A stretch of 64,000 nt of DNA from a virus. Lineage: Duplodnaviria; Caudoviricetes. The notes beneath the pieces are model-generated. The model saw only the letters and a list, made by a program, of their open reading frames with translations. It was not told where the DNA came from and did no database searches. The position numbers and the translations under genes were made by a program. The stretch is from positions 15,726 through 79,725 of IMG/VR virus record IMGVR_UViG_2582581306_000002, one strand, 5' to 3'. Below, one piece after another: positions 20,393 to 30,406 of this stretch. The number at the start of each line of letters is the position of its first letter. Position 1 is the stretch's first letter.

Positions 20393-23300
20393 TCAACGAT
20401 AGATTGGGTCCGGAAGCTTCTCGCGCAGTGATTTCCCGAGCGCGGGATTTCCGATAAGCACACCATCCTCACGCTTCGCCGCGTTCCTCGCCCGTGTTTT
20501 CAGTGAGCGCTTCAAGGTTTCCGCGGTGATGGCGAGCGGCCCGTTGACCGGCACAGCGTTGAACTTCTTGATATCGGCGATCGCCTCCTTCCGGGCCTCG
20601 TCATCCTTCATCGTAACGGCCATGGCGAACCGATTCATGAGCATCCTGCGCTTGTCGAGGATTGCCTGCTCCGCGTTCTTCAATGAGATGTTGCGATCCC
20701 AAGTCTCCGCGACCTTAGCCGGTGTGAAACCGAGGAATTGAGCGACGAGGTCATGATAGTCGATTTGGTTCGCCGGCAGGATTTCGTCGCCGCGAGCCGA
20801 CGTCACACCCTCCTGGGCATAGCGATAGGTTTTCAGGAGATCGCGGATGAACTTGGGCGCGGCGACTTCCAGGCCGCGCGCTACGTTGCCTTCGTCCTTG
20901 ATTACCGAGAACCCCTGCCAGAACTGGCCGATCATGCTGACACTGGCGCCGAGCGACTGAAGGGCCCAGTATTCATATTCGGATTTGCCCTGGAGATCGC
21001 GTGACGGGGAACGGAACCAGAGATCCGGCATGCCGATACGCGATGTCAGATCAATACCGAGATAATGACCAGGCGCACCGTTGAGAACGATGCCACCGAG
21101 CTCGGGACCGAGAATGTCCTGTACGGATTTCCGGAACTGCTGCTCGAAATCCATGGGATCGTCGTCGTCGCCGAAAATCGCGGAGGCAAGCGCCATCACT
21201 AGATTGAAACCGATGGTTCCGGTGACACCGGCGAGCAGCGACATCATGCCGACCACACCGGCCAACTGGTACCGCGCCTCCTTGCGCACCGCAGCACTCT
21301 CGCCCTTCAGCGACTGGTGGATGTCGCGGAAGACACGATACAGATAGTTGATCTGGTACTGACGGAACACCAGCGCGACCTTGGCAAAATCATTTTGCAT
21401 GATCGCTGGCCGGCTGGAGTTGGAATAGTCGAAGTGCGTTTTAAGGGTGAGCTCGTGCGCTGCGTCGATCGCGTCAGGCTCTGTCCTACCGGCGGCGCGC
21501 GCCATGCGGTAAGCAGCCAGCGCGGTGACGGACCGATTGACGACTTCTGCCTGCTGAAACGCCCACGAAATCACTTTCATCGTCTTGGCGCGAATGGAGG
21601 TCTGGTTGATGCCGTTCTGTCCGGCACCGGCGAGGTCATAACTCTGGGTACGGTCGATCAGGCCCGATTCGTAGAATGCCTCCATGGCGCGTTTTTCATC
21701 GTCCGTGGTGCTGGAGCCCATCAGGCGCCCCTTACTGACGACAAAATCCTTGGAGGCGCGGAGCAGTGCCGCACTCGATTTGGCGACACCACCGTATTTC
21801 GCACCGAGGATCGGCACACCGAGCATGACGGTCTGGGTCAGATTGACCATGGCCGCGGCTGGGGAGGCGGCGAGATAATAGACGAAGGCAACGGACGTCA
21901 TCCATTGCGCCCATTCCGATCCTGTCGGGTTCATCACCCAGTCGTGACGTTTGGCGAGTTCGTTGGCCAGTGTCATCGCCCGGGTCTGATCGTCAGCTTC
22001 CTCTGCCTGGTCCTTCGCCTTATTGGTCAGTTCTTGCAGCTCAAGCCCGTACTTAATTTTCCCCATCTGGTGTGCGCCGTGGAAGAGCGCATTGGCAAAC
22101 ACGCGCATCGCGTCCTCATGGTAGCCGGCCGTCCCTTTGCGGTGAATAAACCGCTTCCGTGCCGAAAGCTCAGGCATACTTTCCAAATATCTTTGCCAGA
22201 TGGCGTCTTGCAGTTCCGGAGCCGCGCCGGCGTCTCCGAGCAGAGTTTCGATCTCGGCGACAATGCGGGGGTCCATTGCCTGGCGGAGCTCGGAGCTGTT
22301 TTCGGTGACCCCGACCTTCACCGTACCAGCCGGATAGGCCTTTTGAACTCTGGTGGCGGTCTGATCGCGCTCATGCGCGGTTTCATGCTTGGAGAAATAC
22401 AGGGTCTCGCCGTCGACATCACGCACCGCGACGAAGTACCGCCCGAAACGGCCGAGCGGGAAATAGGGCGCCGGAACGCGACTGTTCTCGAACGCGATGC
22501 GCATCTTCGTCATCCGCGCCTTCATCGTCCACTGCGCCCGGGTTTTCTGCTCTTTATATTGTGTCGCGAGTTCCGCCTCCTTCGCCTTCCGCGTCTTCGC
22601 GGTCAGGTTCTTCTTGTCGAGATCGGCGATATTCTTCTGATAGTCGGCCTCGGCACGGTCGAGCGCGATCTGCTGGGCTTTGCGGACATTGTCCAGGAGC
22701 AACTGATCCAGTTCCTCAGCCTGCTGACGATAGGTGTCACGGACCGTCGAGAAAAGCTCCCGCGCCTTCACCGGCAGCGCGAGGTACTGTTTGCGCAGGG
22801 CGTCATAGCCGGTCTTTGCGATGGTCTCCGCGTCGGTCAGGGACGGATCAACGCCAGCGAGGGTGGCGTCGTGCATCAGGCTGGATATCTGTGCCGCGCG
22901 GGACTTATCCTTTCCGAGATAGCCGGTGCTGATGACCTTGCGCCACTGTTCTACAACCTCGCCAGCTTTTTCGTGCTTCTTGCCACGATAAGTGTCGAGG
23001 AGGCGTTTGACCCGCAGGTAATCGCCGACGGCCGTCATGTTCGGACGTGCAAGTTCCGGGAAATAATTAAGCGGGATGGTTTTGAGCATAGCTGGCTGGA
23101 TGTCTGTCAGTTTTCCGCTCAACGCCGAGGCGATGGCGCCCGGAGTGGGGATGAGACGGTCGCTGTCCTCGGCGATCGAGAACTGTGTTGCCTCGACCTT
23201 CGGCTTCGAGACCGGCGTGCGCTGCGCGATCGCGCCCGACTTGGCACGGTCAAAGACGTCCTCTGCGGTCTGGAAGCCCCTGCCCTGCAAGAAATTCTGC

Positions 23301-26300
23301 ACCTGACGGATAGCCTTCAGGATGCGGTCCCATGCCGCCCGCAACGCGGTGTGCGGCTTGATCGTCGATACGCCGGTAGCGTAGGCCGCAAAGGCTTCTG
23401 CCTCGACCTCGTGAGCCGTCATCTTCGCTGCCTGCTTCTCACGGCCGATCCGCTGCTGCACCATGCGTCGCAGACGGCCAATTTCGGCCTTGAGGACAGC
23501 TTTCTCGGCATTTGACAGGAAGAGGTGCTGCAGGCGGTGGAAAGCCTCATGGTAGGCGTTCGTGGCGCTCGCCGTGTTTTCAGCGATGGCAATGACGTCC
23601 TGCCCGGGCGAGTAGAAGCCGCCGGCCGTCGTCGGCGTCGTCGTACCCCATGCTGCGGCGCCGTTCGGGAGGTCGATGCGCTTCATCCACATCACATCGT
23701 TGAGGCCAGCGACCTTGCGGACGATGTCATTCACAGCTTGGATGTCAGCGGGGGAGCCGAGCCCTGTATCAGTGGAAGTATCGACATCTCCCCAGCCCAT
23801 TGGGGCCGCGGCTTTGCGCTTTGGTGAGACAATTTTGACCCGGCTATCGTCGTAGATCACGTAATTGTAGGTGCCATCTCCAGCATCGCGAGACGCGCCG
23901 TCGAGGAAACGGTGACCCGGGATGCCTGCCGCGCGCAATGCTTCGGAAGCCGCCTTGTCGGAGCCACGTTCCTTAACGAGGCTTTCATAATAATCCTGAA
24001 AGGTTTGATCGAGGTTTAACCTGCCGGACAGCGCATTATTGAACTTTTCGCGAATACCTTCGAGCGTGGCACGCTGAGCCGGAGTGAGCTCGTACACAAG
24101 ATCAAATTCTTCGTCTATGCCGAGGTCATCGCGAATGTAACGCTCTCCATGCTGTTGCCCTATTATATTGCCGGCAAGCGTGGAAAACCTTCTGATATCC
24201 GCTTTGGATGCCTTCCGAGCACCGGCTGGTGCCAACTTCTGAAGTATTTTCCGCACGCCCTCCGGCTGGTCCGAAATATCACCATCCCACCATGCAAGTT
24301 CGCTATCCTCGGGAACATCGACCTCGAAAAGCTGCCCACCTCCCTCATGTTTGAGGTTTGCGCTTTTCAGCCAATCCCGTCCGCCCTCGTAGAATGCCTT
24401 CATTCGGCCGGTGTCTGTTGCTGCAAACTGTTCGAGCTGCTCGATTGCCTCTGCAACACTCAGAACACCCAAGAGAGCATCCGTCCCGGCCTTCTCCTCG
24501 TTGGTCATTTTGGAGCGATCCAACGTTTTCACGTCGACGCCGTTGAGAAGGAAGCGACTGTTCCGGGTCAACATACGCCTATAATGGTTCGCGACCTCCT
24601 TCTTGCCCGCAAAATAGAGGCCCCAACCGAACGACTGGTTGCCTTCGCCGGTACCAATCATCTCAGTGCTGAACTCATCGAAGTCTGAGCCTGTGCCATG
24701 GTAGGCCGCCTGAAACTCCGCATCTTCGGGCGGCTTTACATTCTCGGCAGCATCAACGTCTGCCGCAGACGACATGCCGTCGAAGGCGGTGGCACGGGGA
24801 TCGTATTTCACGCCCATGTACCAGGACTTCAAATAGGGCCGCGCGACGTCGCCGAGATCGGCCAGCATAGCCGTGGCAAATGCCGCGAAGGTGCGGGCGC
24901 CCTTTTCGATGTGATAACCGGCCAGCGTGACACCGGCCTGCAGGATTTCGGGATCGATGCCGCTGTTCAGCGTCGAGCCGGATAGTTTCTTGCGGAGCAG
25001 CGCGCGCGCCTTCTCCGCAGCGTCTTCGGTGAAAACGGTGTTTTCTGTCACCGGAAGTTTCTGCTTCGCTGGTGGCTTGGACGTCCGTGCCTCATGCTTC
25101 GCCTTCATGTCCGCGAGCGATTCCTTGAACTCCTTGCGGATCGCGTCGGCGAGCTGCTTGCCCTTGAGGACGATCCGGCGCTTGCCATCGTCCTTGTCGA
25201 GGATGAACGTGATGGCTGGCCCGGGGCGGGTCTCCACCATGTATTTGTTGCCACCGGCACCACCGGTACCGAATTTCTTCTCGACGAGCTCCAGCAGCTC
25301 CTTATCCTGCATTCCGGCTTTGACGGCTGCCGCGATGTCGTCATCGCCGCCATTGGTCTGGGTAAGGCGGCCAAGTGCATCGGAAATCGCATCATCTTCA
25401 CTGCCCCAGACATCGTCCCAGGGATGATCGTCGGCGTTGAAGGCGCGCTTGACCTCTGGAACCGGCGTCTGCTCGACGGTCGCCGCCTTTACCGACGGCG
25501 TGGCGTTAGTACCGCGCTTTCCTCCGACATCCCCGTTCCGAGGCGATAGTGAATCGTCGATGGGCACAGACCGACCTGTTCCGCCCATGCTGTCAGGGTC
25601 TTGGTCTCCCCCCCGATCGTCATCATGTGGTTTTTCCGCATGTTGTGGGCTTGCTCCTTCTTTGTCGCCCAACGAAGGTTCCCCGGCTCGTAGTTTCCCT
25701 CGTTGTCTATCCGGTCCAGCTGATGTTTCGGTGTCGGCCTGTCCCCGACGATTTCCAGAAAGGTCGAGAACCTGCTCATCCTCGGATCTAGGGCGATCCC
25801 CCGCCCCCCGTAGTTGTGGTAGTACGGGCTCTTCGGGTTTTGCGTCCGGTCCAATATGTTGAGCCACGTCTTGTACAGGGGATGCCTGCTCAGTCCGTGA
25901 TATTCTCGCTGCCCCCTGGGGCGAGCGTGTTGCCTTGTCATCTTTGAGGAGTACCTTCAGGTCCTGGACCGACATCTCAGTGATGTCGCCCATGCGGCGC
26001 GAAGCGGAGGCATCGGAAAAGCCCCGGCTGTAAATATCGACCGCGTCCGCACGATCTGATGCGCCAAGTATAACCTTCAACTCGTCGAAACGTCCAGTGT
26101 CCGGGTCGATCTGATCGACAACAAACGCAGGGTTCTCGTCGGAGATATCCGATGTTCCGGCTTTCACGTACAGATCGACATGATCGCCATCGGCACCGGT
26201 GGTTCCCCTGAAATATCCGTAGTGCGCCGGCATCGTAACCGACCACGGTTTACCGTCTGGGCCTGTTCCCTTACGCTCCGAACCAACCGGATTTTCAATC

Positions 26301-29300
26301 GAAATATCCAGCCCACCCAGCCGAATGTGGCCCTTTTTGTAATTTCCTTCTTTTTGCTGTGCTTCCGTCGGCTCTGGAAGATCATTCAGTGGAGATGTCG
26401 CTGCAGCATGCGCCTCGGTGTCGACATTGGAGATCGCGTTAGCCGGTACCAAGGCGTTCAGTTTCTTCCTGACCCCGCCGGAATGACCGGCCCAATCCAG
26501 CTTTTCAGACCGTTTGATGCCGGCGGTATCGAGCACGACGCGACGCTCGTCCGGCGACATCGCATCCCACCAGACCTGCGCCTCGTCGATCGGCGCCACT
26601 GGTTCGTCTATTGCGCCGCTGCGACGGTGCTCCGACTGCCACTCCTTCAGGCGCTTGTCGTTGACCGGCGGCATCTTGATCGCCAGTTTCGACCGGGCTT
26701 CCTTGGCGGCGCGCTCGACGCGGTACCGGAAGTCATCACTGAGCTGACCCAGTGCCTGCGAATCGATCTCGAACTCCTTGGCGAGCAGCCGCTGTTCCGC
26801 CGGCAGCGCCTCGTCCATGCCGAGTTGGCTGGTCCCCATGATCCGCTTGCTGGTCAGACGCTCCTTGCCGAGGTCGTAGAGGCGGGCATGCAAGGCGTCG
26901 GGCATGGACACCGTTTTGTCACCGAGACGGCGATCGGTGCCGGTCAGCACAGGCGTTTCCCGCTCGACCGGCGGATTGCGCTTCAACTCCTGCTCTTCGA
27001 CCTGCTTCGCATTGAGCTTGCTGACAAACAGCGCCGCGGCGGGCACCTGGTAGGATTGGCCTGCATCGTTGGTCACGAGGACCTCGGTCGCGCCTTCCTC
27101 GTAGGAACCGACCTTGGCCGAAAACCTGCCGAGCTCCGGCGTATCGACGATGACGCGCTGACCCGGCTGCGGTGCCGACGGCAGTTTCTCAAGCGCAGGC
27201 ATCTGCTCGCTACGTGGCGGCAATTCGCTGGTGATTTCACCGGCAACGGGCTCCTGCGGGCGCAGTGCCTCATCGTCCGAGGATTCGGGCAAAGCGTCGC
27301 GCGTCGGCAGCAACGAGCCCGACGGTGGTTTCGCGATCTCGGTCAACTGGCCCAGCGGGATCTGGTAGACCTCGCCGCTTCCGCTATCGACGACGACGGC
27401 CTCGTCGCCCTCGTAGCCTTCGACGGTCGCCATGAAGGGCTCGACACCGTCGGCATCGACGCGCACCGTGGCACCTTGAGCCGGACGGATGCCGCTCGAA
27501 GCTGCCGCAGCTGCTGCGACCTGCGCGCCGATACCATGCTCCTGCTGCTGCCGGACCGCTTGCGTTTCGCCGTGTTCCAGCGCTCGCGCAAGCGGCCCAG
27601 CCCGCCTTGCCCCCGCAGGCGGTGCCTGTTGGGTCGCTGGTGAAGCGACCTGTTCGTCGATTTCGTTGCTGATCTCGGCAGAGGCTGGGCTGATTGCCCC
27701 ACCAGCACCACCCAGCCCGCCGCCCATGGCTGCGCCGGCAGCGAGCCCGCCCGCAGCTGCCTCCGCGACACCCTCGGTTAGATTTTGGCTTGGATCGACC
27801 GTCTGCACGGCCGCGTTTTCAGCGACCTTCTGCGATGCACTCTGTGGGAGTTCTTCGAGGATGCCCTCACCGGCCGCACCGCGACCGGCTCCAACCAGAA
27901 GACGTTTCGCGACGGTACCGCCGACGCCTTCCGCAATAATCTTGGCGAGAGCACGGTCACCAAGACCGCCGAATGCGCCGGTTGTTACACCGGCTACCAA
28001 AAAAGCTTGCGAGGCGGCGTCATCTGTTATCGAGGCAATAGCTTCGTCCGGCGACATTCCCTGAGAAATAAGTGCCTTGACGGAATCAGCCTCCAACAAC
28101 TGATCGCGAGGTATCTCCGCGATACGATCGCGTACTTCTATCGCTGACTGTCCCCCTCCAAGGCCGCCCTCACCGACGGCGCCAGCGACAAGCGCTGTCT
28201 TCGCGGCTGTTGCAGCTGCGGCCTTCTCGCCCAGGCCACCCACGATCGCTGCGGTGTAGGCACCCCGCGCCAAAAGCGCGCTTGGCCCCATCGTGGCCAG
28301 CGTGCTCGGTGCAGATTCGGCTATCGCGCCGAGGTAACTGTCAGGATCCGACCATGCAGGTCCAAGCGTACCCTTCTCGCTGTCCCACCACGTCTTGTTG
28401 TAGCTGACTTTGCCGGCCTCGGTGACAGATGCTCGGGCTGTCGTCGCGTAGTCACGGAGCCGCTGTTCAACAGGTTTTCCCGTTACCCACTCATCCACAG
28501 CGTCCAGACCGCCGACGATCGATGGACCGACCTTGGGTATCATTCCCACAACAGCGCGCACCGTTCGGCCCAGATCTGCGTTCCCGGCACCAACCTTTCG
28601 GGCGAGGTCACCACCGCGACCAGTCGATCGGTTCTCTTTTTCCCATTCTGCCTTCCACGCCTCGTATTCCACCTCGGACATGGTGAGGTATTTTCCAGGC
28701 TCACGTGTATCTAGGGCTGCATGGGTCTCTTCTATCAGCTGATTTTCAGCAGCGACGCCTGCCCCAGCACCACCGGCGGCAGACCGAGCCTTTGCAGCCG
28801 CCTCGGCCTCTTTCACCGACTTGAAGCGCTCGAACGTCTGTCCGTTCGCCTGCTCATAGGCCTGCATTGTGCGAAGGATGTTGTCCTCGTCGCCGGCGTC
28901 GAACTGCACTGGCCCCTTTGGACCCATCCACAACGATGGGACGTTGACCCACTCGCCGCTTGGGAGCTGCCACGTGGTGGAAATCTCGGTCGAATAGCTG
29001 CCGTCCGCGTTCGGGCGCTGCTCGTCTGGCCTGAACGGTCGCAACTGGGCAGTAGATGCAGCCATTTCCTTGAACGGATTGGCCTCACCGTACAGTTTCA
29101 TGTCGTCTTTCGGCTGGAAGTCGCCGGAGACAGGGATACCGCCCTTTTCGGCGTTCGTCGTGCCTTCCGCCTGCGCGACTGCCTGCGGAGCCCCTCCTGC
29201 CGCGACATCCTGAAACCAGCGCGGAGCCTTGTTCATGTTCCTGTTGGTCTTGTCGTGCATGAACCAGGTGGAACCGTCTCCCTTCTGGTCCTTCAGATCG

Positions 29301-30406
29301 ACGTGCAGCATGTCCGGTGAATCGGTATAGGTGATGAACCGCTTCGCACCGCGCGCGCGGAGATCCTGCACCAGTGCGGCCCGCTCCTGGTCGGACATGC
29401 CCTTCATGGAGATGTCGGACGCATCGCCGCGCGAATGTTCACCGGGGCCACCGGCCTTGGCAGCCTCAACACGGTGCTGCGGCGACCGGAAGCCGGAAAG
29501 CACGGTTAGATCGCGACCGAGCGCTTTGGACGAATCGACCAGGATGCTTTCGAACGCCGGCGCCAGCTTGTTCTGCTCCGGATGGCTGAAAAACAGTTTC
29601 CCGCCACTGCCGGCCGGCGCTTCCTCTTCGGGCCGCACCAGACGGGCAAGACCTTTCGCTGAAGGATTCGGCACATAGCTGCTCGACTGGTCAGTTGCCG
29701 CCGCACGCGCCGCTGTCTCCTTGTCCACCGCCGCAAACGGGTCTTTGCCACCATAGAGCCCGAGGCCATCCTTGACCTCGAACCCCTCGCCGATCGTCAC
29801 GCCGCCCGCCGGCGCCGCAGCTTCCTGCCGCTTACCCGTGGACGAATAGTAGGTATGGCCGCCGATCTTCGTGGTCACCGGCATGGTCTTGGCCCAATCC
29901 GGCGACACATAGCCGGCATGGAAGTGATCAGCACCGCCGGTCGGGTCTTGCAGCGTGCCATCAAACACGCCCTGCACGATCTTCTCCGCCTCGCTGCGGA
30001 TCATGGGATTGCGCTGCGCTTCCCGGGAACCCTCACGCGGGTTTTCATAACCCTCGAACTGCGACGGCTGGCGAACAACATCTGCTGGCGAGATACCGCG
30101 AGCTGCTGCCCGGTTCTTGATGACAGACGCGACGCCCACCATGCCCTGGGGACCGTCACCGGCCGCCTCGGCGATGACGGTATCCACCATGTCGTTCCAA
30201 TCCTTCGCGTCGAACGACGTGTTCTTGTTCACGACGCGGGATGGGAGCTCTTGTGTGTTGGTGCCAGGTGTCTGGGTGTTGACCGCGCGCGTCGTGCTCT
30301 CGGCAGGCTTCGGGTTCAGCCCGCCACCGCCATAGAGGCCGAGCGGGTCTTTGAACTCAGAAGCGTCCTTGGAATTGCCGAGACCGATGACAATGGGGGG
30401 GGGCAT
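20393..30406 (-). CDS. Giant polyvalent virion/injected protein (3337 aa)
   Basis: Recognisable segments: SleB-type cell-wall hydrolase, M15 peptidase (SGFRS..H...D...HVD), inorganic-pyrophosphatase-like (GNYKKGH...HYGY...DGDHVD), ART-like (YHGT...GWGLYF), zincin HEAFH, PLxRFG (YFPLGRFG). Confidence 0.9.
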   Translation of the reverse strand: MPPPIVIGLGNSKDASEFKDPLGLYGGGGLNPKPAESTTRAVNTQTPGTNTQELPSRVVNKNTSFDAKDWNDMVDTVIAEAAGDGPQGMVGVASVIKNRAAARGISPADVVRQPSQFEGYENPREGSREAQRNPMIRSEAEKIVQGVFDGTLQDPTGGADHFHAGYVSPDWAKTMPVTTKIGGHTYYSSTGKRQEAAAPAGGVTIGEGFEVKDGLGLYGGKDPFAAVDKETAARAAATDQSSSYVPNPSAKGLARLVRPEEEAPAGSGGKLFFSHPEQNKLAPAFESILVDSSKALGRDLTVLSGFRSPQHRVEAAKAGGPGEHSRGDASDISMKGMSDQERAALVQDLRARGAKRFITYTDSPDMLHVDLKDQKGDGSTWFMHDKTNRNMNKAPRWFQDVAAGGAPQAVAQAEGTTNAEKGGIPVSGDFQPKDDMKLYGEANPFKEMAASTAQLRPFRPDEQRPNADGSYSTEISTTWQLPSGEWVNVPSLWMGPKGPVQFDAGDEDNILRTMQAYEQANGQTFERFKSVKEAEAAAKARSAAGGAGAGVAAENQLIEETHAALDTREPGKYLTMSEVEYEAWKAEWEKENRSTGRGGDLARKVGAGNADLGRTVRAVVGMIPKVGPSIVGGLDAVDEWVTGKPVEQRLRDYATTARASVTEAGKVSYNKTWWDSEKGTLGPAWSDPDSYLGAIAESAPSTLATMGPSALLARGAYTAAIVGGLGEKAAAATAAKTALVAGAVGEGGLGGGQSAIEVRDRIAEIPRDQLLEADSVKALISQGMSPDEAIASITDDAASQAFLVAGVTTGAFGGLGDRALAKIIAEGVGGTVAKRLLVGAGRGAAGEGILEELPQSASQKVAENAAVQTVDPSQNLTEGVAEAAAGGLAAGAAMGGGLGGAGGAISPASAEISNEIDEQVASPATQQAPPAGARRAGPLARALEHGETQAVRQQQEHGIGAQVAAAAAASSGIRPAQGATVRVDADGVEPFMATVEGYEGDEAVVVDSGSGEVYQIPLGQLTEIAKPPSGSLLPTRDALPESSDDEALRPQEPVAGEITSELPPRSEQMPALEKLPSAPQPGQRVIVDTPELGRFSAKVGSYEEGATEVLVTNDAGQSYQVPAAALFVSKLNAKQVEEQELKRNPPVERETPVLTGTDRRLGDKTVSMPDALHARLYDLGKERLTSKRIMGTSQLGMDEALPAEQRLLAKEFEIDSQALGQLSDDFRYRVERAAKEARSKLAIKMPPVNDKRLKEWQSEHRRSGAIDEPVAPIDEAQVWWDAMSPDERRVVLDTAGIKRSEKLDWAGHSGGVRKKLNALVPANAISNVDTEAHAAATSPLNDLPEPTEAQQKEGNYKKGHIRLGGLDISIENPVGSERKGTGPDGKPWSVTMPAHYGYFRGTTGADGDHVDLYVKAGTSDISDENPAFVVDQIDPDTGRFDELKVILGASDRADAVDIYSRGFSDASASRRMGDITEMSVQDLKVLLKDDKATRSPQGAARISRTEQASPVQDVAQHIGPDAKPEEPVLPQLRGAGDRPRSEDEQVLDLSGNRRGQADTETSAGPDRQRGKLRAGEPSLGDKEGASPQHAEKPHDDDRGGDQDPDSMGGTGRSVPIDDSLSPRNGDVGGKRGTNATPSVKAATVEQTPVPEVKRAFNADDHPWDDVWGSEDDAISDALGRLTQTNGGDDDIAAAVKAGMQDKELLELVEKKFGTGGAGGNKYMVETRPGPAITFILDKDDGKRRIVLKGKQLADAIRKEFKESLADMKAKHEARTSKPPAKQKLPVTENTVFTEDAAEKARALLRKKLSGSTLNSGIDPEILQAGVTLAGYHIEKGARTFAAFATAMLADLGDVARPYLKSWYMGVKYDPRATAFDGMSSAADVDAAENVKPPEDAEFQAAYHGTGSDFDEFSTEMIGTGEGNQSFGWGLYFAGKKEVANHYRRMLTRNSRFLLNGVDVKTLDRSKMTNEEKAGTDALLGVLSVAEAIEQLEQFAATDTGRMKAFYEGGRDWLKSANLKHEGGGQLFEVDVPEDSELAWWDGDISDQPEGVRKILQKLAPAGARKASKADIRRFSTLAGNIIGQQHGERYIRDDLGIDEEFDLVYELTPAQRATLEGIREKFNNALSGRLNLDQTFQDYYESLVKERGSDKAASEALRAAGIPGHRFLDGASRDAGDGTYNYVIYDDSRVKIVSPKRKAAAPMGWGDVDTSTDTGLGSPADIQAVNDIVRKVAGLNDVMWMKRIDLPNGAAAWGTTTPTTAGGFYSPGQDVIAIAENTASATNAYHEAFHRLQHLFLSNAEKAVLKAEIGRLRRMVQQRIGREKQAAKMTAHEVEAEAFAAYATGVSTIKPHTALRAAWDRILKAIRQVQNFLQGRGFQTAEDVFDRAKSGAIAQRTPVSKPKVEATQFSIAEDSDRLIPTPGAIASALSGKLTDIQPAMLKTIPLNYFPELARPNMTAVGDYLRVKRLLDTYRGKKHEKAGEVVEQWRKVISTGYLGKDKSRAAQISSLMHDATLAGVDPSLTDAETIAKTGYDALRKQYLALPVKARELFSTVRDTYRQQAEELDQLLLDNVRKAQQIALDRAEADYQKNIADLDKKNLTAKTRKAKEAELATQYKEQKTRAQWTMKARMTKMRIAFENSRVPAPYFPLGRFGRYFVAVRDVDGETLYFSKHETAHERDQTATRVQKAYPAGTVKVGVTENSSELRQAMDPRIVAEIETLLGDAGAAPELQDAIWQRYLESMPELSARKRFIHRKGTAGYHEDAMRVFANALFHGAHQMGKIKYGLELQELTNKAKDQAEEADDQTRAMTLANELAKRHDWVMNPTGSEWAQWMTSVAFVYYLAASPAAAMVNLTQTVMLGVPILGAKYGGVAKSSAALLRASKDFVVSKGRLMGSSTTDDEKRAMEAFYESGLIDRTQSYDLAGAGQNGINQTSIRAKTMKVISWAFQQAEVVNRSVTALAAYRMARAAGRTEPDAIDAAHELTLKTHFDYSNSSRPAIMQNDFAKVALVFRQYQINYLYRVFRDIHQSLKGESAAVRKEARYQLAGVVGMMSLLAGVTGTIGFNLVMALASAIFGDDDDPMDFEQQFRKSVQDILGPELGGIVLNGAPGHYLGIDLTSRIGMPDLWFRSPSRDLQGKSEYEYWALQSLGASVSMIGQFWQGFSVIKDEGNVARGLEVAAPKFIRDLLKTYRYAQEGVTSARGDEILPANQIDYHDLVAQFLGFTPAKVAETWDRNISLKNAEQAILDKRRMLMNRFAMAVTMKDDEARKEAIADIKKFNAVPVNGPLAITAETLKRSLKTRARNAAKREDGVLIGNPALGKSLREKLPDPIYR
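25489..25941 (-). CDS. HNH-family endonuclease-like gene nested in the +1 frame of the giant gene
   Basis: HG....PLY.TW..I..R.......Y.NYGGRGI...LDRIDNEGNYEPGNLRWAT..EQ..N, plus a C-terminal TLTAWAE..G...TI..RL HTH. Confidence 0.85.
   Translation of the reverse strand: MTRQHARPRGQREYHGLSRHPLYKTWLNILDRTQNPKSPYYHNYGGRGIALDPRMSRFSTFLEIVGDRPTPKHQLDRIDNEGNYEPGNLRWATKKEQAHNMRKNHMMTIGGETKTLTAWAEQVGLCPSTIHYRLGTGMSEESAVLTPRRR

What the first reader, a model, noticed from the sequence alone, without database searches (positions are those of the whole stretch)
25489..25941. Complete HNH-family gene overprinted in the +1 frame inside the 10-kb giant gene
Seen: a 150-aa ORF with a clear phage HNH-like signature (YGGRGI...DRIDN.GNYEPGN.RWAT..EQ..N plus an HTH) lies wholly within the giant ORF, same strand, +1 frame (about codons 1489-1639). 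The host frame stays open and reads as a disordered linker right after the pyrophosphatase-like domain. No intein or intron features are evident. Inference: a mobile endonuclease that avoids disrupting its host gene by dual coding rather than splicing. The DRID in place of DHID leaves nuclease activity uncertain.
Basis: partly seen in the sequence, partly recalled or inferred. Interest (0 to 1): 0.8.

Follow-up and report, generated by a model that had tools for sequence, protein, structure and literature searches.

The report
Hidden HNH gene inside giant phage gene
A complete HNH-type (DNA-cutting enzyme family) gene is written one base out of step inside a 10-kb phage virion-protein gene, which reads straight through it as a floppy linker; the layout is real and kept by selection, but this kind of hidden gene was first published in 2025, so this is a new example, not a new principle.

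Summary
Confirmed. On the minus strand, a 150-aa ORF (25489-25941) lies in the +1 frame inside an unbroken 3337-codon DarB-like polyvalent gene (20393-30406), directly after its InPase domain. It matches PHROG HNH families (phrog_3377, E 2.6e-45) but not Pfam HNH_3. None of 135 related giant-gene loci carries it. The host frame is stop-free against expectation (P 0.0004-0.016), and 3 of 93 other HNH-homologue loci have no stop in that frame. Against a second nested copy (L152, 63% identical), conservation follows the HNH frame. Four nested copies form one HNH clade with the eight closest homologues, whose contexts are unknown. Nineteen other large proteins carry the host-frame 'shadow', 17 right after InPase. 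Presence is patchy on the InPase tree. No intron signal. The catalytic His is Arg family-wide, so nuclease activity is unproven. The closest known case is the 'hidden HNH' ShiLan insertion in phage methylases (PMC11855218, 2025). Earlier notes of this scan report the same layout on other DNA. Verdict: a well-supported new member of a known kind.

The parts
20393..30406 (-). Host gene: an unbroken 3337-codon polyvalent (DarB-like) virion protein gene.
   Evidence: ORF list and translation. Pfam hits are Hydrolase_2, InPase and LPD39 above cut-off, with ART-PolyVal and Peptidase_M15_3 below it. phrog_10089 'DarB-like antirestriction' matches at E 0. Homology to Atu_ph08 gp21 lies in the same frame on both sides of the overlap.
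25946..26365 (-). InPase domain of the host protein (residues 1348-1487), ending just before the hidden gene.
   Evidence: Pfam PF18823 at E 2e-46. In 17 of 19 other 'shadow'-bearing proteins the same domain directly precedes the shadow.
25954..25958 (-). Shine-Dalgarno-like GAAGG, 12 nt upstream of the hidden gene's ATG. An in-frame TGA lies at 25957-25959, so the ATG is the first possible start.
   Evidence: Read from the sequence. SD-like purine runs lie 4-12 nt upstream of the start in 5 of 5 nested loci. The function is inferred.
25489..25941 (-). Hidden HNH-like gene: 150 aa, +1 frame relative to the host, with an N-terminal helical part, a beta-beta-alpha core (residues 73-100) and a C-terminal helix-turn-helix (about 105-146).
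   Evidence: phrog_3377 at E 2.6e-45. The AlphaFold model has mean pLDDT 91.4. Structural matches are weak: PacI Z 5.5, the I-TevI DNA-binding domain Z 3.3 and the I-HmuI C-terminal part Z 2.6.
25490..25942 (-). The same DNA read in the host frame (codons 1489-1639): a hydrophilic, stop-free 'shadow' linker.
   Evidence: Hydrophobic fraction is 0.119, the lowest in the protein. Host-frame identity to the L152 copy is 34%, no better than the unused third frame at 38%. There are 0 stops where 6.4 are expected.
24743..25441 (-). Conserved downstream domain of the host protein (residues 1656-1888), where homology to HNH-less relatives resumes in the same frame.
   Evidence: 63% identity to Atu_ph08 gp21. 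Matched in 80 viral and 35 genome loci.

Best explanation
This is a 'hidden' out-of-frame HNH-type element. A small gene for a modular DNA-binding, nuclease-like protein (beta-beta-alpha core plus helix-turn-helix) sits at the domain junction after the InPase domain of a giant polyvalent virion-protein gene. It is written in the +1 frame. Shown: both frames are intact. The HNH frame carries the sequence conservation. The host frame is kept free of stops and reads as a hydrophilic linker, so the giant protein is made uninterrupted without RNA or protein splicing. Inferred: the small protein is translated on its own from an internal SD-like site plus ATG on the giant gene's mRNA. Also inferred: it spreads like a free-standing homing endonuclease gene, by binding and cutting or nicking HNH-less alleles near the 3' end of InPase-coding DNA in co-resident phages, with repair copying the element and some flanking sequence. 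The element belongs to one HNH clade that lives this way in many different giant genes. Whether it cuts DNA is open. The canonical general-base His is Arg in the whole family. An invariant Tyr in the loop between the two strands could take over, as in PacI.
For: The ORF is real: PHROG HNH families hit down to E 2.6e-45 and there are 522 homologues.

The host gene is continuous: homology to Atu_ph08 gp21 and to 135 loci lies in one frame on both sides.

The element is absent elsewhere: 0 of 80, 0 of 35 and 0 of 20 related giant loci have an HNH hit. These include loci with the same InPase subtype at 58% identity.

Composition follows the HNH frame: GC by host codon position is .75/.54/.48 in the overlap against .66/.47/.70 gene-wide.

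A second nested copy exists. L152 has an HNH 63% identical, in the same +1 relation, after InPase, in a giant protein that is 37-50% identical. Nucleotide identity by HNH codon position is .67/.78/.45. Amino-acid identity is 63% in the HNH frame, 34% in the host frame and 38% in the third frame, which has 8 and 11 stops.

Stops are avoided in the host frame. P(open) is 0.0006, 0.0016, 0.0022, 0.21 and 0.0096 under host codon usage in the 5 nested loci, and 0.016, 0.0014, 0.026, 0.0068 and 0.016 on permuting own codons. Only 3 of 93 other unique HNH-homologue loci have 0 stops in that frame. One is L152 and two are short partial matches. In a second set, 7 of 80 loci have 0 stops. Three of these sit inside ORFs of 1278-2757 codons, and four are in 64-74% GC DNA with no gene-like reading.

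Clade: window, L152, L232, L233 and the 8 closest database proteins form one group (SH-aLRT 94) with no known free-standing member. At least 2 changes of state are needed on 114 rows.

Spread: 19 other proteins of 375-5742 aa match the host-frame shadow (E 6e-12 to 4e-4), and 17 of the 19 have InPase directly before it. All 10 that I read (of the 19) carry the shadow motif of the YGGRGI block.

Patchiness: on the InPase tree (19 with, 57 without) at least 11 changes are needed, and starred branches force at least 3.

No intron family is found at E<=1.

Precedent for the layout: PMC11855218 (abstract, Results and Discussion read).
Against: No expression data exist, and no RNA run holds the stretch. 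Translation from the internal start, absence of splicing and homing are all untested.

The SD-like site in the window is 12 nt from the ATG, which is longer than usual.

Pfam HNH_3 is below threshold. NCBIfam gives nothing. There are no sequence relatives in the PDB. Foldseek has no match at E<=0.001, and the best VIA Z is 5.5, in the range the tool calls unreliable.

The general-base His is Arg in 64 of 64 aligned members, so the protein may only bind DNA.

No close empty allele was found. The nearest HNH-less relatives are 50-66% identical in flanking domains, so exact insertion borders and target site cannot be read. Relative to Atu_ph08-like genes a conserved ~45-aa stretch is missing, so the event was not a simple insertion.

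The low hydrophobicity of the shadow against simulations is confounded with avoidance of T at HNH third positions, and it is not significant in L255.

The trees are 'quick' trees on ~140-150 columns with many unresolved forks.

Confidence: 0.8

Rival explanations
1. It is a domesticated DNA-binding protein, not a selfish nuclease. The family has lost the catalytic His. The nested gene would encode a regulator or accessory factor that serves the phage, for example one acting with the injected giant protein. It would be kept inside the giant gene for co-expression.
For: Arg replaces the general-base His in 64 of 64 family members. A C-terminal HTH is present. The HNH frame is under purifying selection. 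The nested clade is tied to one position after InPase in 17 of 19 shadow-bearing proteins. His-Me domains without the His and without a substitute are known to be DNA binders (PMC5714182 passages).
Against: The distribution is sporadic: 0 of 135 related giant loci carry it, and at least 11 changes are needed on the InPase tree. That is what a selfish element shows, and it does not fit a needed partner. The family is scattered through unrelated phage contigs as free-standing genes. An invariant loop Tyr and the retained Asp/Asn positions leave room for PacI-like catalysis.
Confidence: 0.2
2. It is a decaying relic. An HNH gene once landed in the linker, is no longer expressed, and survives only because its DNA now encodes part of the giant protein.
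For: The host frame must stay open whatever the HNH does. There is no expression evidence for the small ORF.
Against: Intact ORFs with start codons and SD-like sites are present in 5 of 5 nested loci. Between copies at 63% nucleotide identity, the conservation pattern is that of the HNH frame (.67/.78/.45). The host-frame peptide (34%) is no better conserved than the unused frame (38%). The profile match is full-length and the model is confident (pLDDT 91.4).
Confidence: 0.05
3. It is an intron- or intein-borne homing endonuclease, with the segment spliced out of the RNA or the protein.
For: HNH genes commonly ride in phage group I introns (general knowledge; also discussed in PMC11855218).
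Against: The Rfam evalue-mode scan of 24500-27000 gives only a chance snoRNA match (E 0.67) and no intron family. The ORF fills 453 of the roughly 490 nt that lack homology to relatives, which leaves no room for an intron core. The HNH is in a different frame from the host, so it cannot be an intein domain. A spliced insert would be under no pressure to avoid stops in the host frame, yet stops are avoided.
Confidence: 0.03
4. It is a frameshift product. Ribosomes shift +1 at the end of InPase and make a truncated giant protein that ends in an HNH domain.
For: The HNH frame opens exactly at the domain junction, and polyvalent proteins carry many nuclease domains (PMC5512222, passages).
Against: A stop lies in the HNH frame 15 nt (window) or 0 nt (L152) before the ATG, which leaves almost no room to shift. 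No in-frame fusion of this HNH to a long protein was found among 70 longer homologues, whose maximum length is 526 aa (weak evidence). The element has its own ATG and SD-like sites.
Confidence: 0.02

Closest known systems
'Hidden' out-of-frame HNH insertions in actinophage DNA methylase genes: the ShiLan domain (gp65) and Pacc40 gp60 (Arsenault, Gosselin and Gogarten, Genes 2025, PMC11855218; abstract, Results and Discussion read)
   Same: A complete HNH-type ORF lies in another frame on the same strand inside a host gene. The host frame has no stop across the insert and reads as an unassignable, loop-like peptide. There are no intron or intein features. The stop codon of the hidden gene sits at the end of the insert. 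Distribution among homologous host genes is sporadic.
   Different: The host gene is a polyvalent DarB-like virion protein of a proteobacterial prophage, not a methylase. The site is a domain junction after InPase. The start is an ATG with an SD-like site, whereas the paper proposes leaderless GTG initiation. The protein family has Arg where the catalytic His should be. This report adds tests that I did not see in the sections I read of that paper: stop-avoidance statistics, frame-specific conservation, a dedicated nested clade and 19 further host proteins. Homology between the two HNH proteins was not tested because no ShiLan sequence was at hand.
Free-standing phage homing endonucleases of the I-HmuI / HNH_3 group (His-Me finger group 2; PMC5714182, passages read)
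   Same: The build is modular: a beta-beta-alpha core plus a C-terminal helix-turn-helix DNA-binding module. They are encoded by phages and occur sporadically. I-HmuI is the top Foldseek row (E 0.43) and its C-terminal part matches at Z 2.6.
   Different: All structural scores are weak. Pfam HNH_3 is below threshold. The general-base His is Arg. The gene is overprinted inside another gene instead of lying between genes or in an intron.
PacI restriction endonuclease (PDB 3m7k/3ldy; His-Me finger group 20)
   Same: It is the best structural match to the N-terminal 105 residues (Z 5.5, rmsd 4.1, 80 aligned, 22% identity). PacI also lacks the catalytic His, and a Tyr in the loop between the strands takes its role (PMC5714182 passages). 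This family has an invariant Tyr84 in that loop.
   Different: The match is in the unreliable Z range. PacI is a restriction enzyme, not a mobile-element gene. The original PacI paper could not be read.
Embedded same-strand out-of-frame phage genes such as Rz1 inside Rz (recalled; no call)
   Same: One gene lies wholly inside another on the same strand in another frame, with its own start.
   Different: Rz and Rz1 are functional partners that evolved in place. Here the inner gene is a family found free-standing elsewhere and looks like an invader.

Membership tests
HNH / His-Me finger nucleases | Match to a curated HNH profile above threshold | tested here: not met
   Pfam HNH_3 gives E 0.08 and 13 bits against a cut-off of 24.8, over residues 80-98 only. 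NCBIfam gives 0 families.
HNH / His-Me finger nucleases | Membership in phage protein families annotated as HNH endonuclease | tested here: met
   phrog_3377 at 2.6e-45, phrog_374 at 2.9e-38 and phrog_2081 at 1.3e-27. Seven of the 9 PHROG hits are annotated HNH or restriction endonuclease. These annotations are not experimental.
HNH / His-Me finger nucleases | Beta-beta-alpha-metal core fold | tested here: inconclusive
   The model (pLDDT 91.4) has strands 73-77 and 89-93 followed by helix 94-99. Foldseek's top rows are HNH enzymes but at E 0.43 or worse. The best VIA match is PacI at Z 5.5.
HNH / His-Me finger nucleases | General-base histidine at the end of the first strand | tested here: not met
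   The motif reads D76-R77. Arg77 is invariant in 64 of 64 aligned family members. A PacI-like Tyr substitute (invariant Y84) is possible but untested.
HNH / His-Me finger nucleases | Metal-ligand Asp/Asn positions | tested here: inconclusive
   D76, N100 and Q97 are at least 90% conserved and N80 and N88 are invariant. Their assignment as ligands rests on motif position only, with no superposition.
Hidden out-of-frame HNH insertion elements (ShiLan type) | Complete HNH-type ORF in another frame, same strand, wholly inside a host gene | tested here: met
Hidden out-of-frame HNH insertion elements (ShiLan type) | Host frame has no stop across the insert, and homology to the host family continues in frame on both sides | tested here: met
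   Openness is non-random.
Hidden out-of-frame HNH insertion elements (ShiLan type) | No intron or intein features | tested here: met
   The Rfam evalue-mode scan finds no intron family. The HNH lies in another frame than the host, so it is not an intein. Unknown intron types cannot be excluded by sequence.
Hidden out-of-frame HNH insertion elements (ShiLan type) | Sporadic presence among homologous host genes | tested here: met
   0 of 135 related loci carry it. At least 11 changes are needed on the InPase tree of 76 rows.
Hidden out-of-frame HNH insertion elements (ShiLan type) | Active homing (cleavage of empty alleles and gene conversion) | not testable with these tools
   Needs enzyme assays and mixed infections.
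Group I intron with HNH ORF | Conserved intron RNA core around the ORF | tested here: not met
   No Rfam intron family at E<=1 in 24500-27000. Only about 40 nt of the insert lie outside the ORF.
Phage polyvalent proteins (host gene) | Many unrelated enzymatic domains in one giant phage polypeptide, including LPD domains | tested here: met
   Hydrolase_2, InPase and LPD39 are above cut-off. phrog_10089 DarB-like matches. InPase is listed as a phage-type polyvalent domain in PMC5512222 (passages).

The most novel reading that the evidence does not exclude
This is not a one-off landing. It is a specialised lineage of HNH-like genes whose codon choice has evolved to be 'frame-transparent', meaning stop-free and hydrophilic in the -1 frame. 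That lets the lineage live obligately inside the linkers of giant injected phage proteins, targeting the DNA at the end of the InPase module and moving together with it between otherwise unrelated giant genes. It may use a His-less, PacI-like tyrosine chemistry. That would make it a distinct class of mobile element adapted to overprinting, and it would mean that many 'disordered linkers' of polyvalent proteins are really shadows of hidden genes.
Probability: 0.3. Interest if true: 0.7.

Novelty: new member of a known kind. Interest (0 to 1): 0.5.

Why it matters
Hidden out-of-frame homing-type genes are missed by gene callers, and they make host proteins look as if they have odd disordered inserts. 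This case extends the 2025 methylase observation in three ways. It shows the layout in the giant injected 'polyvalent' proteins of proteobacterial phages. It shows that a whole clade of one HNH-like family lives this way, in at least 5 DNA loci and 19 further protein clusters. It gives quantitative evidence that selection keeps both readings. It also offers a clean test system for two open points: how such genes are translated from inside another gene (here an SD-like site plus ATG), and whether a His-less HNH variant can still cut DNA.

Tried and rejected
Close empty allele: I looked for a relative of the giant gene that differs only by the insert. I used blastn against phages, viral contigs with the downstream domain, genome contigs and viral contigs with the InPase domain. 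The nearest relatives are 50-66% identical in flanking domains, so no exact borders could be read.

Word-index search with the host-frame peptide among proteins of 1835-5840 aa found only the window's own protein. The full HMMER search then found 19 others.

In-frame fusion of the HNH to long proteins: 70 longer homologues were found, all 264-526 aa and none giant. The tool itself calls this weak evidence.

Structure: the Foldseek PDB search gave no match at E<=0.001. Profile and single-sequence searches of PDB sequences gave only chance rows.

Expression: one search for sequencing runs listed a single DNA holder that may be the source sample, and no RNA holder was listed. I laid no reads. This says nothing about expression.

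Other nested ORFs: five further same-strand ORFs of at least 87 aa inside the giant gene have no PHROG hit at E<=0.01, and I do not claim them as genes.

Chance open frames: four loci with a stop-free host-equivalent frame (L235, L237, L245, L259) lie in 64-74% GC DNA. Their open frames of 236-600 codons read as junk, so I did not count them as nested.

Hydrophilicity as a separate selected trait: the effect is significant in 4 of 5 loci. I rejected it as independent evidence because avoiding T at HNH third positions lowers both stops and hydrophobic residues.

Rows dropped: for the HNH tree I kept only unique matches covering at least 115 query residues and added L255 by hand. For the InPase trees I kept only unique matches covering more than 120 residues.

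Supplements of papers were closed and not requested. The GitHub material and any supplements of PMC11855218 may list further hidden-HNH hosts that I could not see.
Full report
WHAT IS THERE. The window is part of an IMG/VR provirus record of 79.7 kb. On the minus strand an unbroken ORF of 3337 codons runs from 30406 to 20393. It is a phage polyvalent protein. Pfam finds a cell-wall hydrolase, an InPase domain (residues 1348-1487, E 2e-46) and LPD39, plus weaker M15 peptidase and ART-PolyVal hits. PHROG places it in phrog_10089 'DarB-like antirestriction'. Its best named relative is gp21 of Agrobacterium phage Atu_ph08. Inside it, on the same strand, the ORF 25941-25489 (150 aa, ATG to TAA) lies in the +1 frame and covers host codons 1489-1639.

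THE INNER ORF IS A REAL FAMILY MEMBER. It matches phrog_3377 'HNH endonuclease' at E 2.6e-45 over residues 13-150, and eight further PHROG families, seven of the nine annotated as nucleases. There are 522 homologues in the protein collection, the best 73% identical. Pfam HNH_3 is below threshold (E 0.08) and NCBIfam has nothing. With 64 aligned homologues, AlphaFold gives a confident model (pLDDT 91.4). It has two strands (73-77, 89-93) and a helix (94-99), which is the order of a beta-beta-alpha-metal core, followed by a C-terminal helical module. Structural searches point to HNH enzymes and homing-endonuclease DNA-binding modules, but only weakly. Foldseek's top row is I-HmuI at E 0.43. VIA-align gives PacI at Z 5.5, the I-TevI DNA-binding domain at Z 3.3 and the I-HmuI C-terminus at Z 2.6. 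No PDB sequence relatives were found.

THE HOST GENE IS CONTINUOUS AND THE SEGMENT IS AN EXTRA. Atu_ph08 gp21 aligns to host residues 551-1491 and 1656-1888 in one frame. The gap is 164 residues in the window against 57 in the phage. I collected relatives through the downstream domain (80 viral loci and 35 genome loci) and through the InPase domain (20 viral loci). None of these 135 has an HNH hit near the junction. The Atu_ph08-like relatives share a conserved linker of about 57 residues, and most of it is missing in the window. The event was therefore an insertion with loss or replacement, a net gain of 107 codons, and not a clean 450-bp indel. HNH-less genes with the window's own InPase subtype also exist (L312 and L313, 58% identity). 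In these the domain is followed directly by an ordinary linker.

WHICH FRAME IS SELECTED. GC content by host codon position is .75/.54/.48 in the overlap against .66/.47/.70 for the whole gene. Shifted by one base, the overlap has the normal coding signature in the HNH frame. A metagenome locus, L152, holds a second nested copy. Its HNH ORF of 215 aa is 63% identical without gaps over 144 residues. It again lies in the +1 frame of a giant ORF (more than 2872 codons) right after InPase, and the two giant proteins are only 37-50% identical. Over the 432 shared bases, identity by HNH codon position is .67/.78/.45. Amino-acid identity is 63% in the HNH frame, 34% in the host frame and 38% in the third frame, which has 8 and 11 stops. 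Sequence-level selection therefore acts on the HNH frame, and the host frame is only kept open.

THE OPEN HOST FRAME IS NOT CHANCE. I redrew synonymous codons from the giant gene's own usage. The host frame then stays open in 0.04-0.06% of trials for the window, with 6.4 stops expected. Permuting the ORF's own synonymous codons gives 1.5-1.6%. The five nested loci give 0.0006, 0.0016, 0.0022, 0.21 and 0.0096 on the first test and 0.016, 0.0014, 0.026, 0.0068 and 0.016 on the second. The weakest value, 0.21, is L233 at 69% GC. Empirically, 3 of 93 other unique HNH-homologue loci have no stop in that frame. One is L152 and two are short partial matches. The host-frame peptide is the least hydrophobic 151-residue window of the protein. 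It is also less hydrophobic than simulated versions, but this is confounded with the avoidance of T that removes stops.

A LINEAGE THAT LIVES THIS WAY. A profile-guided scan of viral contigs found three more nested copies: L232 and L233 in the same clade, and L255 nearby. On a tree of 114 HNH sequences, the window, L152, L232, L233 and the eight closest database proteins form one group (SH-aLRT 94). The contexts of those eight could not be fetched. The group has no known free-standing member. I searched 1.84 billion representatives with the host-frame 'shadow' peptide. This returned 19 other proteins of 375-5742 residues, at 34-42% identity over about 130 residues. In 17 of the 19 the shadow directly follows an InPase domain. 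One of them, P0136, gives the same alignment figures as the L152 giant ORF and is probably its full-length form. All 10 that I read carry the shadow of the YGGRGI block. On an InPase tree of 76 rows (19 with the element, 57 without) the two states interleave. At least 11 changes are needed on the best tree, and at least 3 are forced by well-supported branches. The window's InPase groups with HNH-bearing ones (P0136, P0125) and not with the Atu_ph08-like genes that are closest in the flanking domains. This fits movement of the element together with adjacent InPase sequence. Polyvalent genes are mosaic anyway, so this point is only suggestive.

HOW IT IS PROBABLY EXPRESSED. In the window a TGA in the HNH frame lies 15 nt before the ATG, and in L152 a TAG lies directly before it. 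The ATG is therefore the first possible start in both. Purine-rich SD-like sites lie 4-12 nt upstream in 5 of 5 nested loci. In the window this is GAAGG, 12 nt upstream, which is rather far. In three of the five loci the ATG is built from a GAT-GAx (Asp-Asp) pair of the host frame. Independent initiation on the giant mRNA is the simplest reading, but it is untested.

IS IT A NUCLEASE. DRID is not a decayed copy of DHID. Arg77 is invariant in 64 of 64 aligned family members. So are N80, Y84 and N88, and D76, Q97 and N100 are at least 90% conserved. The classification of His-Me fingers notes that PacI lacks the catalytic His and uses a loop Tyr instead, while groups lacking both are DNA binders (PMC5714182, passages). 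PacI is the best structural match here, although a weak one, and Y84 lies in the corresponding loop. PacI-like chemistry is therefore a testable guess, and loss of activity remains possible.

RIVALS. An intron is unlikely. No Rfam intron family matches, there is almost no non-ORF sequence in the insert, and stop avoidance in the host frame would be pointless if the segment were spliced out. An intein is excluded by the frame. A relic is contradicted by the frame-specific conservation and by intact starts in all five copies. A frameshift fusion is made unlikely by the stops just upstream of the ATG and by the lack of long in-frame fusions (weak evidence). A domesticated DNA-binding role cannot be excluded.

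WHAT IS KNOWN. Arsenault, Gosselin and Gogarten (Genes 2025, PMC11855218; abstract, Results and Discussion read) described exactly this layout in mycobacteriophage methylase genes (the ShiLan domain and Pacc40 gp60) and mention further cases. A search listing also shows a 2026 preprint on an out-of-frame homing endonuclease in a cyanobacterial dnaX intein and a genome announcement of a methylase with an out-of-frame HNH (listing only). The polyvalent-protein survey (PMC5512222) has no occurrence of 'frameshift' or 'overlapping' and mentions HNH once in another context. My two full-text searches listed no paper placing hidden HNH genes in polyvalent proteins. Earlier AI notes of this scan report the same layout in giant phage genes on other DNA. 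I read them after my own tests, and they are not independent evidence.

VERDICT. This is a new, well-documented member of a recently described kind, in a new host-gene class and a different, His-less HNH-like family. The evidence points to a whole lineage specialised for this lifestyle. Expression, splicing status, cleavage and homing remain to be shown at the bench.

Noticed in passing
L044, L047, L123, L050 and L116 (L116:3869-4999): Several relatives of the giant gene carry 250-1100 extra bases inside the conserved domain that follows the linker. In L116 the extra piece, read in the host frame, hits phrog_10089 (E 1.6e-37), so it looks like an extra in-frame domain and not a hidden gene.
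   Followed up: partly
L116:4908-5561 (+): A 217-aa ORF one base out of the giant frame matches the last ~100 positions of phrog_938 (E 2.3e-44). It may be another overprinted gene, or members of that PHROG may end in a different frame.
   Followed up: no
window 25490-25942 against relatives' linker (for example L037:3830-4000): The Atu_ph08-like relatives share a conserved ~45-aa stretch between InPase and the next domain. This stretch is absent from the window's gene, where the hidden HNH lies instead. Its function is unknown.
   Followed up: partly
L255:4917-5426 and L232:4977-5438: Two further nested HNH copies sit in giant ORFs but are not preceded by a detectable InPase domain. L255 falls outside the main nested clade, so overprinting may have arisen more than once.
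   Followed up: partly
window 25105-25413, 25977-26246, 27343-27771, 28813-29088, 29506-29769 (all minus): Five other same-strand out-of-frame ORFs of 87-142 aa lie inside the giant gene. None has a PHROG hit at E<=0.01, and they are probably chance ORFs of GC-rich DNA.
   Followed up: partly
L152:3983-4630: The L152 copy of the hidden gene is 215 aa because its C-terminal helix-turn-helix module is duplicated. The second repeat is 33% identical to the first module of the window's protein.
   Followed up: no
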